Source: Promethearchaeota archaeon (GTDB lineage: Archaea > Asgardarchaeota > Lokiarchaeia > Sigyniarchaeales > SOKP01). Taken from it: a stretch of 64,000 nucleotides of DNA. Positions 6,002-27,160 of the stretch are shown piece after piece (positions within the stretch are counted from its first letter, which is position 1; each line of letters starts with the position of its first letter). The stretch spans positions 166,465 through 230,464 of the forward strand of contig JAHLWP010000002.1 in the NCBI GenBank assembly GCA_019057865.1, in the 5' to 3' direction. A program made the translations under genes and the position numbers. The notes under the pieces are model-generated. The model was not told the DNA's origin. It worked only from the letters and a program-made list of their open reading frames with translations, and did no database searches.

Positions 6002-6157
6002 TGGACTCGGGGGGATTTGAACCCCCGATTTCCTGTGTCTTCTACAAAAAGTAGAAAAAATTCAGGCTTTTACTTGAACGGACATTTCTTAGAATTTCTT
6101 GTTTGTCCGTCGGTCATTTATAAGACCTGCGCTTTAACCAAACTAAGCAACGAGTCC
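6002..6157 (-). tRNA. tRNA-Ile(UAU) with two introns (about 50 nt at 37/38 or 38/39, 6069-6118; 31 nt at 45/46, 6030-6060)
   Basis: Acceptor GGACTCG/CGAGTCC+A; D arm GCTT/AAGC; anticodon arm CAGGT-CT-TAT-AA-GCCTG; T arm GGGGG-TTCAAAT-CCCCC. The second intron has BHB helix CCTG/CAGG with AA|T and AA|A bulges. Confidence 0.8.
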
Positions 6158-24018: not shown

Positions 24019-24458
24019 AATTTATCTTCCACCTCTTTTTCTTTCTTTGGACCAGTTAACTCTTCTTCCCAAAATCCATATAATGCTTTTCTCTCAATCA
24101 TCTTAGCACGCCAAGGATCCATTTTCTTTTCTTTTGTAAATTTTGTAATAACTAAATTCGATATGTGTATTGGAGGATTGAATGTCGTCCCATCTGTTTT
24201 TTCGAACTGGGCTTCTTTAATTTTTACTCGCTGATCTTTTGTGATCTCAAGCACAGAGCCTTCAAAATCTTTAAACTCCCCCCGACATACTCTCACTTGG
24301 TCATCCACTCTAAGAGGAAGTCGCTTTATGCCATATTCATCACGTAAAAAATCGGCAACTCGTGTGCTAAGTAATTTTGATCTTTGATGATTTTTGTAAT
24401 TGTATAAAGCTTTTCTTTGCTTACTTGGTTTTTTTGATTCAATTTTCACTTTTACCAC
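24015..24458 (-). CDS. rpl24: 50S ribosomal protein uL24
   Basis: SKKPSKQRK, DQVRVCRGEFK and PIHISNLVI motifs. Confidence 0.96.
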   Translation of the reverse strand: MVKVKIESKKPSKQRKALYNYKNHQRSKLLSTRVADFLRDEYGIKRLPLRVDDQVRVCRGEFKDFEGSVLEITKDQRVKIKEAQFEKTDGTTFNPPIHISNLVITKFTKEKKMDPWRAKMIERKALYGFWEEELTGPKKEKEVEDKL

Positions 24459-24471
24459 TCTAATACTGATA

Positions 24472-24897
24472 TTAAATAATTAATGATGATATTGATGCTA
24501 ATCTTGGAAAGATTTCAGCAGCTTCTCTTGCAATTGGTCCTCTAATCTCTGTACCTCTTGGATCGCCTTCCTTAGATATTAAAACACCTGCATTATCTTC
24601 AAAACACAATCGTGTTCCATCTAAGCGCCTATAAATCATTCTTTGTCGTACGATAACAGCTTTTAAAATATTTCCGCGCATTTCAGGTTTTCCTTTCTTA
24701 ATTGTAACCGTACATACACTCCCAACGGTTGCTTTAGGTAATCTTCTTAATCTTGTTTTACTATGGTCAACATTAATAATTTGAGCAATCTTTGCTCCAG
24801 AATTATCCGTAATGAGAATTCTTGAGCCATTGCACAACCCATAACTCGTTCTTGGCTTAATGACTCTTTTATGACCTAATTTTCTTCTTGTTCCCAT
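24472..24897 (-). CDS. rpl14: 50S ribosomal protein uL14
   Basis: DNSGAK, AVIVRQR and FEDNAGV motifs. Confidence 0.97.
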   Translation of the reverse strand: MGTRRKLGHKRVIKPRTSYGLCNGSRILITDNSGAKIAQIINVDHSKTRLRRLPKATVGSVCTVTIKKGKPEMRGNILKAVIVRQRMIYRRLDGTRLCFEDNAGVLISKEGDPRGTEIRGPIAREAAEIFPRLASISSLII

Positions 24898-25248
24898 TTA
24901 CATCGCCGTACTTGAAAGTTTTTCTAATACAATAAATGCTTTGGTTTTTGATATTTTACGAGACTCACCTACTCTTACCATATCGCCAATTTGAACCTCG
25001 TTATTTAAACATTCTGGTAAATGACATGCAAGTCGTGAATTACGACGTTCATAACGTTGATATTTTCTTACAAATTGAAGATAATCTTGTCTTATAATTA
25101 CGGTATTTCTTGATCTTTTACTTACTATAACTCCTTTGGTAATTTTTCCTCTTATACGAGTAGTACCATGAAATGGACAATATTTATCATTGCATTCGCT
25201 TACTTTGGGAGGATTTACTCCAGGAATACCAATATTTCGTGCACTCAT
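24898..25248 (-). CDS. rps17: 30S ribosomal protein uS17
   Basis: CNDKYCPFHG, KYQRYERR and ISKTK motifs. Confidence 0.97.
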   Translation of the reverse strand: MSARNIGIPGVNPPKVSECNDKYCPFHGTTRIRGKITKGVIVSKRSRNTVIIRQDYLQFVRKYQRYERRNSRLACHLPECLNNEVQIGDMVRVGESRKISKTKAFIVLEKLSSTAM

Positions 25249-25249
25249 T

Positions 25250-25546
25250 TTATTTCTTCAACCATTTTTTCTTTTTTAAACTTCTTAATCTATTTACCGG
25301 AATTCCAACAATCTTAGATCCGTTCACTTCCAAAATTCCTTCTACTATTTTAAACTTAAATATATGATCTTTTTTTATATATTTTCTAATCACATTATTT
25401 TTTTGTGTTATTAACATATTTCTTGTTTCATCAATTACAACACCAACATCCGAGAAATCTGCATTATTTGGTTTTGATTTGGATTTTATATATACATATA
25501 GACCAATTAAATCATGATATATTAGATATTTTGGATTAATAGTCAT
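25250..25546 (-). CDS. rnp1: Ribonuclease P protein component 1 (Rpp29/POP4)
   Basis: HDLIGL, GVVIDETRNML and G.KIVG.P..RL motifs; conserved operon position. Confidence 0.92.
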   Translation of the reverse strand: MTINPKYLIYHDLIGLYVYIKSKSKPNNADFSDVGVVIDETRNMLITQKNNVIRKYIKKDHIFKFKIVEGILEVNGSKIVGIPVNRLRSLKKKKWLKK

Positions 25547-25771: not shown

Positions 25772-26597
25772 TTATTTTTCTTTTTCAACTTTTTTATTTG
25801 GCTCTAAAGAAATCTCAGAAATATCTTCTTCATCCACTTCATCGAGCAATGCTCTATCTTCCTCACTTAGAACTCCCTCTTCTTCCACCATTTCATAGTC
25901 TTTTTTCAATTTTTTCTCTGCCCTTGTTTTGGTTAACTCTGCTGCCTTTTTTGCTTGAGCTTGTGCTAAGAGATCATCTTTAATTGTAATGTCATCCCCC
26001 ATTTTAGTATCGGCTCGCATTACTTTTACAATTACTCCTAAAGTTCCTGATTTTAGAATACATTGAGCAACTCCTTTATCTACCCCTTCTTGAGCGGGTT
26101 GTCCCGATTTTGATATGGTTCCAGCGCGAAATATTTGCGTACGTGCACGTTGTGAAGTAACCTTGCCTGATATAATTATTTCCACACCCTTTGCACCAGC
26201 ATCCATTACTTTGCGGAGGATATAGTAACCTGCTCTTCTATAATGCCTTCCTCTATCGAGACTGTATGCAAGCCTTTCAGCCATAATTTGTGCATCTAAA
26301 TCAGGCTGTTCTACTTCTTCCACTTCTATTTGTGGCATTTCTAATTCAAATCTTTCTTGAAGAACATCTGTAATTTCTTGAATTCGCTTTCCACCTTTAC
26401 CTATTACAAGGCCAGGCCTTGATGTTTTGAGCGTAATACGAACTCCAAGGGGAGTCTTCTGGATGTCAATACCTGCAAATCCAGCTCGAACCAACTCAAA
26501 CCTTAGATATTCATTTATTTGCATTAATTTGATACCCTGCTCGATTTCACTTTAGGAAAGTCTTGCTTTACCTAATGAAGTGTTTAGCAAGCGGCAT
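25772..26597 (-). CDS. rps3: 30S ribosomal protein uS3, intron-interrupted: join(26577..26597, 25772..26545), 264 aa
   Basis: KH domain RPGLVIGKGG and GVEIIISGK. Exon 1 MPLAKHF follows a GGTGA RBS; the spliced start MPLAKHFIEQGIKLMQINEYL matches the uS3 N-terminal pattern. Confidence 0.9.
26546..26576 (-). other. 31-nt BHB-type intron in the rps3 coding sequence
   Basis: CACT TC|A TTAGG-T-AAAG-CAAGA-CTTT-CCTAA AGTG AA|A: 4-bp central helix CACT/AGTG, two 3-nt bulges, intron hairpin, outer pairing CTTGCT/AGCAGG. Confidence 0.85.
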
Positions 26598-26680
26598 CAG
26601 TATTCACCAACCATCTTGTTCTTTATCACCAATTATGTTTTTTTTTTTTTATGTTTTTTTTTAATTTTAATAATTCATAC

Positions 26681-27160
26681 CTAACTTGGAAATTCATAGA
26701 TTACAATTTCAACATGGCTCAAATGTTTAAATTTAGCAGTTGATCGACCTTGAGCTCGAGGCATATACCTTTTTATTATTCTTCCCCTATGTGTTGCCGC
26801 ATGGATTATTCTGCATAATTCTGTGTCTAAACCTTTATATTCAGCATTTGATTCAGCAGAGGCAAGAAGCTCGTAAATTATAGCTGCTGCTTTCTGAGGA
26901 TATCTTCCAGCGTACCATTTAAATTGTTTTAGATCTTTTTTATGAGCAAGTTTTTTCTTGTGTCGTCTGAAGGGGACTGATTGCTTTAATTGAATTACAT
27001 TTTCTAAAAAAGCCTTAGCTTGATCGACCTTCATACCTTTTATTACAGCACAGATTTCTCTTCCATGTTTAGGTTTGATTCTTAGATCTCTACCTGCTGC
27101 CTTTGCCAATCTTTCGGCATCATATTTCTGTTCTATGAAAGAATAACCCCAGTTAGGCAT
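26681..27160 (-). CDS. rpl22: 50S ribosomal protein uL22
   Basis: AGRYPQKAA, NAEYKGLD and PRAQGR motifs. Confidence 0.97.
   Translation of the reverse strand: MPNWGYSFIEQKYDAERLAKAAGRDLRIKPKHGREICAVIKGMKVDQAKAFLENVIQLKQSVPFRRHKKKLAHKKDLKQFKWYAGRYPQKAAAIIYELLASAESNAEYKGLDTELCRIIHAATHRGRIIKRYMPRAQGRSTAKFKHLSHVEIVIYEFPS

What the first reader, a model, noticed from the sequence alone, without database searches (positions are those of the whole stretch)
26546..26597. Candidate BHB pre-mRNA intron in the essential ribosomal protein uS3 gene
Seen: on the minus strand a GGTGA RBS precedes ATG CCG CTT GCT AAA CAC TTC, then a 31-nt insert (ATTAGGTAAAGCAAGACTTTCCTAAAGTGAA), then ATC GAG CAG GGT ATC AAA TTA ATG. 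The junctions fold as a bulge-helix-bulge: central helix CACT/AGTG, bulges TC|A and AA|A, intron stem TTAGG/CCTAA plus AAAG/CTTT, and outer pairing CTTGCT/AGCAGG. Cutting after the second base of each bulge joins the exons in frame as MPLAKHFIEQGIKLMQINEYL. The unspliced RNA reads MPLAKHFIR-stop. Established: EndA cuts BHB motifs and RtcB ligates them; the well-known archaeal mRNA intron precedent is crenarchaeal cbf5. Inference: this Asgard-like archaeon splices an r-protein mRNA with its tRNA splicing machinery, possibly as a switch tying ribosome synthesis to splicing capacity. Gene callers would simply truncate the gene at Met15, which could hide such cases.
Basis: partly seen in the sequence, partly recalled or inferred. 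Interest (0 to 1): 0.95.

Follow-up and report, generated by a model that had tools for sequence, protein, structure and literature searches.

The report
tRNA-type intron in uS3 gene
A 31-base insert breaks the essential ribosomal protein uS3 gene of an Asgard (Promethearchaeota) archaeon; it has the shape of a tRNA-type intron and is almost certainly cut out of the mRNA by the tRNA-splicing enzymes, as part of what looks like widespread mRNA splicing in this lineage that I found no paper describing.

Summary
On the minus strand, ATG CCG CTT GCT AAA CAC TTC (26597-26577) is followed by 31 nt (26576-26546) and then the rest of uS3 in the +1 frame. The insert carries stops in all three frames.

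Three close relatives lack the insert (91-95% identical). Their proteins start MPLAKHFIEQGIKLMQINEYL, exactly the predicted spliced product, and the DNA alignment shows a clean 31-nt gap.

21 contigs from many samples carry the insert. Its only varying base among these lies in the hairpin loop.

The bulge-helix-bulge (BHB) geometry holds: CACU/AGUG, UC|A, AA|A, and a 5+4 bp inner hairpin. Shuffled inserts reach this with P~6e-5. The 3' bulge is relaxed.

A 31-nt tRNA-Ile intron in the same window obeys the same rule. The genome encodes an alpha/beta EndA with the broad-specificity loop (K-P-R) and one RtcB.

Congeners carry 30-31-nt BHB inserts at two other uS3 sites, one with strong covariation. 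This genome's aEF-2, rpoA1 and a leuS-like gene are also interrupted.

No RNA data covered the site, so splicing itself is inferred. The "regulatory switch" idea is untested.

This scan had already flagged similar micro-introns elsewhere in this genome (cooS, leuS, acs). The paper search found no description of them.

The parts
26604..26608 (-). Shine-Dalgarno-like GGTGA, 6 nt upstream of the uS3 start codon
   Evidence: Read directly. It is invariant in all 21 insert-bearing contigs. TTG-start congeners have the same GGTGA context.
26577..26597 (-). Exon 1 of uS3: ATG CCG CTT GCT AAA CAC TTC = MPLAKHF
   Evidence: Intron-less relatives P0003/P0004/P0007 begin MPLAKHF|IEQGIK. The NCBIfam profile lacks exactly 7 N-terminal residues when exon 2 is scored alone.
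26546..26576 (-). 31-nt intron. It consists of b3 (A, 26576); h' UUAGG (26575-71); bulged U; AAAG (26569-66); loop CAAGA (26565-61); CUUU (26560-57); CCUAA (26556-52); Hc AGUG (26551-48); AA (26547-46)
   Evidence: It is a clean 31-nt gap against intron-less relatives (alignment A2). Geometry. Shuffle test P~6e-5. Among the 21 contigs the only variable base is loop position 26565, C/U; one short minority contig of a DNA run has a stem change at 26571. The sequence is unique in the genome.
26579..26582 (-). Central BHB helix H, 5' strand (CACU, exon nt -6..-3). It pairs with AGUG at 26548-26551. The 5' bulge UC|A is 26578-26576
   Evidence: 4/4 Watson-Crick pairs at the canonical offset. The tRNA-Ile intron in the same window shows the same rule.
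25772..26545 (-). Exon 2 of uS3 (IEQGIKLMQINEYL...EKEK, stop included). The annotated 250-aa ORF starts at Met15 (26524)
   Evidence: It is the only uS3 match in a 99.7%-complete genome.
26530..26543 (-). 3' strand of the outer exon-exon helix. CGAGC (26543-39) and GGUAUCA (26536-30) pair with GCUUG (26592-88) and UGAUGCC (26599-93). The alternative register is AGCAGG (26541-36) with CUUGCU (26591-86)
   Evidence: MFE and evaluated structures. In the MFE register the start codon lies inside this helix. Its function is inferred only.

Best explanation
The 31 nt are an archaeal bulge-helix-bulge (tRNA-type) intron inside the coding region of the single-copy uS3 gene.

Proposed mechanism (inferred):
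1. In the primary transcript, exon nt -6..-3 (CACU) pair with intron nt -6..-3 (AGUG).
2. The 5' splice site sits in the 3-nt bulge UC|A, next to the intron hairpin.
3. The 3' splice site (AA|A) sits in a looser bulge or internal loop that is closed by an exon1-exon2 helix.
4. The two-subunit (alpha-beta)2 splicing endonuclease cuts after the second nucleotide at both sites. Its catalytic subunit carries the broad-specificity loop.
5. RtcB joins the exons to give ...CAC UUC AUC GAG..., and probably circularises the intron.
6. Only the spliced mRNA encodes full-length uS3 (MPLAKHFIEQGIK...). Unspliced RNA gives a 9-residue peptide.

Shown here: the insert, its exact boundaries, its geometry, its conservation, the presence of the enzymes, and sister cases.
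Inferred: cleavage and ligation in vivo.
For: (1) Boundaries. Three intron-less relatives (91-95% identical, metagenome DNA contigs with the same operon) encode MPLAKHFIEQGIKLMQINEYL. They align with a clean 31-nt gap.

(2) The insert is real and fixed. G000, G012, G056 and 18 further contigs from NCBI, JGI, ENA and Logan samples all carry it. DNA runs X5 and X9 span it, and no joint across it is listed.

(3) Constraint. In the stretch from just downstream of the SD to Met15, 3 of 85 columns vary. In the CDS, 55 of 251 third positions vary. The only variable intron base in these contigs is in the hairpin loop. By my calculation from the counts, the binomial P of at most 1 variable site in 31 at the third-position rate is about 0.005.

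(4) Geometry. H is 4/4, and h' is 5+4 bp. The cut after the second bulge nucleotide restores the frame. That cut rule is stated in PMC2738675. Shuffles reach this geometry with P = 6e-5.

(5) In-genome calibrator. The tRNA-Ile(UAU) at 6002-6157 was placed by the Rfam tRNA model. It has a 31-nt variable-loop intron with CCUG/CAGG, AA|U and AA|A.

(6) Enzymes. There are two EndA paralogues. One is most similar to the A. pernix catalytic subunit and aligns K-P-R with K44/R46 of the Crenarchaea-specific loop. There is one RtcB. Asgard EndA was reported as (alpha-beta)2 with the L1 loop (PMC5829648).

(7) Sister cases.
- uS3 site B (VIG|KGGK, 30-31 nt; 5 genomes, including a U-A to A-U swap in H).
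- uS3 site C (GLE|MPQIE, 30 nt; 8 sequences): 88% of cells paired, 8 of 9 h' pairs with compensatory changes, 0/500 shuffles as good.
- uL14 of G022: 29 nt, ACUG/CAGU.
- In G000 itself: an aEF-2 copy with a 30-nt insert, UCAG/CUGA and a 9-bp h'; rpoA1 with a 65-nt insert; a leuS-like gene with a 28-nt insert, GACC/GGUU.
Against: There is no RNA-level evidence. The two metatranscriptome runs that hold parts of the operon do not cover 26400-26700. No spliced-junction string was found in JGI contigs.

The 3' bulge is not canonical. The helix next to it is a single A-U pair or is absent.

The site A intron is nearly invariant, so it offers no covariation of its own. Support for pairing comes from other sites.

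The intron lies 21 nt after the start codon, so translation of unspliced RNA could compete with folding. How the cell orders the two processes is unknown.
Confidence: 0.85

Rival explanations
1. No splicing occurs. In this lineage uS3 is made from Met15 (250 aa, as annotated). The upstream 73 nt are a leader holding a remnant of the old N-terminus plus a hairpin, for example a translational operator.
For: An ATG exists at codon 15 and all gene callers use it. No RNA or peptide data contradict it. The conserved leader could be conserved for regulation.
Against: There is no Shine-Dalgarno before Met15. The GGTGA sits before the exon-1 ATG.

Exon 1 and the 7 pre-Met15 codons remain intact. They are identical in protein to the intron-less relatives, and the only change in them is synonymous.

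The N-terminal 14 residues are conserved in all ~100 relatives examined and in the NCBIfam/TIGR profiles.

This idea cannot explain sites B and C, aEF-2 or rpoA1. There the insert lies mid-gene in essential motifs.
Confidence: 0.07
2. Programmed translational bypass of the T4 gene 60 type. Peptidyl-tRNA-Ile takes off at AUU (codon 8), skips 28 nt and lands on AUC, which gives the same protein without RNA splicing.
For: The AT repeated at both borders means that AUU and AUC Ile codons flank the gap. A stop lies two codons after the take-off codon, and a hairpin starts at the gap.
Against: The stop is not adjacent to the take-off codon.

The other inserts have no matched take-off and landing codons. 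Site C needs A|UG to be rebuilt across the junction, and aEF-2 has GAU...AAA|GAC.

All inserts share BHB geometry, which bypass does not need. The same geometry and size occur in tRNA genes, which are not translated.
Confidence: 0.03
3. Assembly artefact, or a decaying pseudogene.
For: None beyond the broken frame.
Against: 21 contigs from independent studies and two DNA runs carry the identical insert. It is the only uS3 copy in a 99.7%-complete genome. The rest of the gene is under purifying selection: variation is concentrated at third positions.
Confidence: 0.01

Closest known systems
BHB intron in the cbf5 pre-mRNA of Crenarchaeota (Watanabe 2002; Yoshinari 2006; Yokobori 2009, PMC2738675)
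   Same: It is a short intron inside a protein-coding gene. The exon-intron borders lie in a mostly relaxed bulge-helix-bulge. The cut falls between the 2nd and 3rd bulge nucleotides. It depends on a hetero-oligomeric EndA, and it is patchily present among relatives.
   Different: The host gene is a ribosomal protein, and the lineage is Asgard/Promethearchaeota. The intron sits 21 nt from the start codon. The same gene has three alternative intron sites within one genus, and other genes of the genome are interrupted too. For cbf5 splicing was shown by cDNA; here it is not.
Non-canonical-position tRNA introns cut by (alpha-beta)2 EndA, e.g. the 31-nt variable-loop intron of tRNA-Ile(UAU) in this window
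   Same: The length (31 nt) is identical. H is at exon -6..-3, the 3' bulge is AA|A, there is an intron hairpin, and the enzyme set is the same.
   Different: The substrate here is an mRNA coding region, so removal must restore a reading frame. The helix closing the 3' bulge is weaker.
BHB intron in the 5' UTR of Haloferax volcanii HVO_1309 mRNA (PMC7714728)
   Same: EndA processes an mRNA, and the intron is released as a circle.
   Different: That intron is in the untranslated leader, in a euryarchaeon with a homodimeric EndA. It does not interrupt the ORF.
HAC1/XBP1 unconventional mRNA splicing (Ire1 plus tRNA ligase/RtcB)
   Same: It is non-spliceosomal: an endonuclease and a ligase remove a short intron and change the reading frame. 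RtcB is the ligase in metazoans (established knowledge).
   Different: The endonuclease is Ire1, which recognises twin stem-loops, not EndA on a BHB. It is a regulated stress response, and no regulation is shown here.

Membership tests
Archaeal BHB (EndA/RtcB) intron | 4-bp central helix between 5'-exon nt -6..-3 and intron nt -6..-3 | tested here: met
   CACU/AGUG, 4/4 Watson-Crick.
Archaeal BHB (EndA/RtcB) intron | Two 3-nt bulges on opposite strands; a cut after the 2nd nucleotide of each gives the functional junction | tested here: inconclusive
   The 5' bulge UC|A is clean. The 3' site AA|A is a 3-nt bulge only with a lone A-U pair; otherwise it lies in a 5x4 or 3x6 internal loop. The cut rule gives exactly the junction seen in intron-less orthologues. 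The motif is relaxed (HBh'/BHL-like), as in most cbf5 introns.
Archaeal BHB (EndA/RtcB) intron | Flanking helices h' (intron) and h (exon-exon) | tested here: met
   h' is UUAGG/CCUAA plus AAAG/CUUU with one bulged U. h is either 6 bp, or 5+7 bp beyond the loop.
Archaeal BHB (EndA/RtcB) intron | Precise removal restores the conserved product | tested here: met
   MPLAKHF|IEQGIK equals the N-terminus of P0003/P0004/P0007, with a clean 31-nt gap.
Archaeal BHB (EndA/RtcB) intron | Host encodes a splicing endonuclease able to cut relaxed motifs, and an RtcB ligase | tested here: met
   There are two EndA paralogues. The catalytic one aligns K-P-R with K44/R46 of the A. pernix specific loop. RtcB scores 561 bits.
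Archaeal BHB (EndA/RtcB) intron | Pairing supported by covariation | tested here: inconclusive
   Site A is nearly invariant: one loop change and one U-G to U-A change in h. Site C in congeners has 8/9 h' pairs compensatory and 0/500 shuffles as good.
Archaeal BHB (EndA/RtcB) intron | Spliced RNA and excised (circular) intron exist in vivo | not testable with these tools
   RNA runs X19 and X20 do not cover the site. Junction-string scans found nothing relevant.
Programmed translational bypass (T4 gene 60 type) | Matched take-off and landing codons, with a stop directly after take-off | tested here: not met
   AUU and AUC flank the gap, but the stop is two codons later. Sister inserts lack matched codons.
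Group I / group II intron or any Rfam family | Ribozyme core detectable by a covariance model | tested here: not met
   The insert is only 31 nt. The only Rfam hit is CrcZ at 14.5 bits against a gathering score of 95, which is chance.

The most novel reading that the evidence does not exclude
The uS3 intron is one visible case of routine, genome-wide EndA/RtcB splicing of mRNAs in a Lokiarchaeia-type Asgard genus. Inserts of about 28-34 nt (occasionally longer) with BHB geometry interrupt many protein-coding genes, including core translation and transcription genes (uS3, uL14, aEF-2, RpoA1, an aaRS). They are gained and lost at recurrent sites. If so, a prokaryote without a nucleus must order mRNA splicing before translation for essential genes.
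Probability: 0.65. Interest if true: 0.92.

Novelty: new member of a known kind. Interest (0 to 1): 0.8.

Why it matters
According to a 2020 paper, only one archaeal coding-gene family (cbf5) and one 5' UTR were then known to be spliced by the tRNA endonuclease (PMC7714728). My searches of the paper library found no later coding-gene case.

Here an essential, single-copy ribosomal protein gene in a close archaeal relative of eukaryotes appears to need such splicing. Sister introns lie at two other sites of the same gene in congeners. Further interrupted core genes occur in the same genome.

If RNA data confirm it, three things follow.
- Current annotations of these MAGs systematically truncate or split genes. 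uS3 is called 14 residues short in 13 of the 15 members of its protein cluster.
- mRNA splicing in a cell with coupled transcription and translation becomes directly testable.
- Protein-enzyme splicing of mRNAs in Asgard archaea bears on ideas about how intron-rich genes, and the separation of splicing from translation, arose.

Tried and rejected
(1) RNA evidence. The look-up of sequencing runs gave two metatranscriptomes with small shares. When laid, they cover only 24400-24770 and 25017-25307, not the intron. This is no evidence either way.

(2) Spliced-junction strings in JGI contigs. The 36-nt pattern gave no hit. The 20-nt pattern gave 5 hits, all chance matches in unrelated DNA.

(3) Genome-wide scans combining BHB geometry with an ORF-joining filter. 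There was no enrichment over decoy or mirror geometry, because junctions between adjacent genes swamp the filter. I dropped this as a way to count introns.

(4) ARAGORN intron calls as BHB calibrators. Their boundaries are unreliable. I used the Rfam tRNA alignment instead.

(5) Mobile-repeat idea. The 31-mer has no other copy in the genome.

(6) Single frameshift. It is excluded by stops in all three frames.

(7) Conservation among only G000, G012 and G056. It was not clearly above background. The signal became clear only with 15 distinct sequences.

(8) Precise intron loss by reverse transcription as proof of splicing. Intron-less P0003 nests among intron-bearing sequences in a quick FastTree. 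However, its whole 5' region, UTR included, is of the intron-less type. Recombination explains it as well, so I draw no inference from it.

Full report
**What is in the sequence**

On the minus strand a GGTGA (26608-26604) lies 6 nt before ATG CCG CTT GCT AAA CAC TTC (26597-26577). Then come 31 nt (26576-26546). Then comes ATC GAG CAG GGT ATC AAA TTA ATG..., which runs on as a complete uS3 to 25772. Read straight through, the first frame gives MPLAKHFIR-stop. The exon-2 frame is closed by TAA inside the insert. The third frame is closed by TAA and TAG. One frameshift therefore cannot join the parts.

Exon 2 alone matches the archaeal uS3 models, starting at profile position 8 of NF003219. So exactly seven N-terminal residues are missing. 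This is the only uS3 match in a 99.7%-complete genome.

**Organism and relatives**

The window is contig C41 of a Promethearchaeota (Lokiarchaeia-type Asgard) MAG. In 22 congeners fetched first, uS3 starts MSPLVKNF|IEQGIKLMQINEYL or (TTG)PLVKNF..., without any insert. Only G000 and G012 have the 31 nt. A third species, G056, has it too.

The protein search then found three closer relatives, P0003, P0004 and P0007 (91-95% identical). Their genes are uninterrupted and begin MPLAKHFIEQGIKLMQINEYL. They lie on metagenome DNA contigs with the same operon (uS19 and uL22 upstream, then uS3, uL29, Rpp29, uS17). The DNA alignment shows a clean 31-nt gap between ...TTC AT and C/T GAG....

The 90%-identity cluster of the truncated protein holds 15 variants, 13 of them called at 250 aa. 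Gene callers do start at Met15. Eighteen contigs encoding four of these variants, from JGI, ENA, Logan and NCBI samples, all carry the insert. Two DNA runs from independent studies span it, and no joint across it is listed. The insert is therefore real and fixed in a small clade.

**Constraint**

Among 15 distinct sequences of this clade, 82 of 753 columns after Met15 vary, and 55 of 251 third positions vary. Only 3 of the 85 columns from just downstream of the SD to Met15 vary:
- one UTR base;
- one synonymous CAG/CAA change, which turns a U-G pair of the outer helix into U-A;
- one intron base, the first nucleotide of the hairpin loop.

At the third-position rate about 7 changes would be expected in 31 nt. 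Seeing one or fewer has a binomial P of about 0.005 (my calculation from the counts). Both the insert and the two short coding pieces around it are under selection.

**Geometry**

The rule for archaeal BHB introns is this. The last six exon nucleotides are a 4-nt helix strand plus two bulge nucleotides. The last six intron nucleotides are the complementary 4-nt strand plus two bulge nucleotides. The cuts fall after the second bulge nucleotide. PMC2738675 states the cut position. The helix placement follows from the anticodon-intron pairing of pre-tRNAs, which is established knowledge.

Here H is CACU/AGUG (4/4). The 5' bulge is UC|A. The intron hairpin is UUAGG/CCUAA plus AAAG/CUUU, with one bulged U and a CAAGA loop. 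The 3' site is AA|A. Of the three junction positions that give the same mature RNA, only this one has the geometry. Shuffled inserts reach it at a frequency of 6e-5.

The 3' side is relaxed. The outer helix is either CUUGCU/AGCAGG after a 3x6 loop, or GCUUG/CGAGC plus UGAUGCC/GGUAUCA after a 5x4 loop. The second form, combined with the canonical core, equals the MFE of -23.0 kcal/mol, and it encloses the start codon.

**Calibrator in the same window**

The Rfam tRNA model places a tRNA-Ile(UAU) at 6002-6157 (minus strand) with two inserts. The variable-loop insert is 31 nt. Its boundaries are fixed by the need for a 5-nt variable loop. It shows CCUG/CAGG, AA|U and AA|A. That is the same rule, the same length and the same 3' bulge as the uS3 insert.

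ARAGORN finds only 18 tRNAs in this genome, 12 of them with introns. That fits heavily interrupted tRNA genes.

**Enzymes**

The genome has two EndA paralogues of 200 and 207 aa and one RtcB.

The 200-aa protein is most similar to the catalytic subunit of the A. pernix and other crenarchaeal heterotetramers. It keeps the Y/H/K catalytic positions. It aligns N-K-P-R with E-K44-P-R46 of the Crenarchaea-specific loop. That loop confers cleavage of relaxed BHL motifs (PMC3241643).

The 207-aa protein lacks the His, from my reading of the sequence. It is presumably the structural subunit.

Asgard EndAs were reported as (alpha-beta)2 with this L1 loop (PMC5829648).

**Sister cases**

Within the genus (54 genomes) uS3 carries inserts at two further sites.

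Site B is VIG|KGGK, in the KH-domain loop, with inserts of 30-31 nt. It occurs in G018, G022, G042, G047 and G060. With the junction placed three nucleotides right of the alignment's placement, it shows UGGU/GCCA, UGGU/GCUA or AGGU/GCCU. The last is a U-A to A-U swap. The bulges are AA|U and AA|A.

Site C is GLE|MPQIE, with a 30-nt insert that is in frame but contains a stop. It occurs in eight sequences. There is an exon-exon helix GGGC/GCCC and a 3-bp H plus an invariant A.G. The 9-bp hairpin has a different sequence in nearly every species. Overall, 88% of cells are paired, 8 of 9 hairpin pairs show changes on both sides, and no shuffle of 500 does as well.

uL14 of G022 has a 29-nt insert with ACUG/CAGU.

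In G000 itself I chose four long core genes in advance: aEF-2, rpoB, rpoA1 and ileS.
- One aEF-2 copy has a 30-nt insert with UCAG/CUGA and a 9-bp hairpin. Removing it restores DSDDEEQERGITI.
- rpoA1 has a 65-nt insert between GHFGH and IKLARPV, with less canonical geometry.
- rpoB and ileS are intact.

A leuS-like gene on C49 is in pieces. One 28-nt insert (GACC/GGUU) restores VPAHDQRDFEFA.

Earlier notes of this scan list many more such cases in this genome. I treated them as leads only.

**Interpretation**

The simplest account of all these facts is EndA/RtcB splicing of the uS3 pre-mRNA.

The rivals fare badly.
- A Met15 start leaves unexplained the intact, selected exon 1, the SD placed before it, and the mid-gene inserts elsewhere.
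- Translational bypass could formally work at site A, where AUU and AUC flank the gap. It cannot work at site C or in aEF-2.
- An artefact or a pseudogene is excluded by the independent assemblies and the selection pattern.

What is not shown is any RNA. The available metatranscriptomes miss the site, and junction strings are absent from JGI contigs.

The start codon does lie in the outer helix, but a similar AUGCC/GG(U/C)AU pairing exists in intron-less relatives. Inserts in unrelated genes argue for a general phenomenon rather than a uS3-specific regulator.

**Literature**

Searches of the paper library found four relevant items:
- the cbf5 intron;
- the HVO_1309 5' UTR intron;
- the EndA structural work;
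- a 2026 preprint on Asgard tRNA introns (10.64898/2026.10.13.758758), which covers tRNA genes only.

Nothing was found on BHB introns in Asgard protein-coding genes. The library lacks most subscription journals, so prior description cannot be excluded.

**Evolution (low confidence)**

The intron-bearing sequences form one clade in a quick nucleotide tree. Intron-less P0003 nests inside it. However, P0003's whole 5' region is of the intron-less type, so recombination is as likely as precise loss.

In the intron-bearing haplotype, synonymous choices in exon 1 and exon 2 (CUU, GCU, CAG) give 6/6 pairs in the outer helix. The intron-less relatives have 4/6. This is suggestive of exon adaptation to the motif, but it rests on one lineage.

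Noticed in passing
L023, L024, L035, L037, L038 (uS3 of G022, G018, G042, G060, G047): A 30-31-nt BHB insert lies inside the KH-domain VIG|KGGK loop of uS3 (site B). It includes a U-A to A-U swap in the central helix.
   Followed up: partly
L017, L023, L024, L032, L035, L037, L038, L114 (uS3 site C, GLE|MPQIE): A 30-nt in-frame insert that contains a stop. It has full hBHBh' geometry, an invariant A.G at H4, and a hairpin whose sequence differs in nearly every species but stays paired.
   Followed up: yes
G000:C82:38858-41038 (-): One of two aEF-2 copies carries a perfect 30-nt BHB insert (UCAG/CUGA, 9-bp hairpin) between MTDSD and DEEQERGITI. The other copy (C87) is uninterrupted.
   Followed up: partly
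G000:C27:30415-30475 (-): RNA polymerase subunit A' (rpoA1) is split by a 65-nt insert between GHFGH and IKLARPV. It is longer than the other inserts and its BHB is less canonical.
   Followed up: partly
G000:C49:5000-8000 (+): A second, leuS-like gene lies in four or more frame-shifted pieces. One 28-nt insert (GACC/GGUU) restores VPAHDQRDFEFA. An intact leuS lies on C1.
   Followed up: partly
L023:150-180 (uL14 of G022): A 29-nt insert lies between GDPKGTE and IRGPIAREAAE, with ACUG/CAGU, AA|C and AA|A.
   Followed up: partly
window 6002-6157 (-): tRNA-Ile with anticodon UAU and two inserts: 51 nt after the anticodon and 31 nt in the variable loop. ARAGORN on the window alone missed it.
   Followed up: partly
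window 26597-26614 (-): A five-codon uORF, ATG GTT GGT GAA TAC TGA (MVGEY), spans the SD. Its stop overlaps the uS3 ATG (TGATG). It is kept in all insert-bearing contigs seen, with one synonymous TAC/TAT change in G056. Its meaning is unknown.
   Followed up: no
window 26571 (+ strand C>T): In DNA run X5, one short minority contig (47 of 144 depth) changes the last G of UUAGG to A. This breaks the innermost pair of that helix.
   Followed up: no
L073/L033 and L113 (uL22); L109 and L112 (Rpp29): tblastn gives split matches or in-frame stops in these neighbouring genes of other species. They may be further introns.
   Followed up: no
whole genome G000: ARAGORN finds only 18 tRNA genes in a 99.7%-complete genome, 12 of them with introns. 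This suggests that most tRNA genes are too interrupted to be detected.
   Followed up: no
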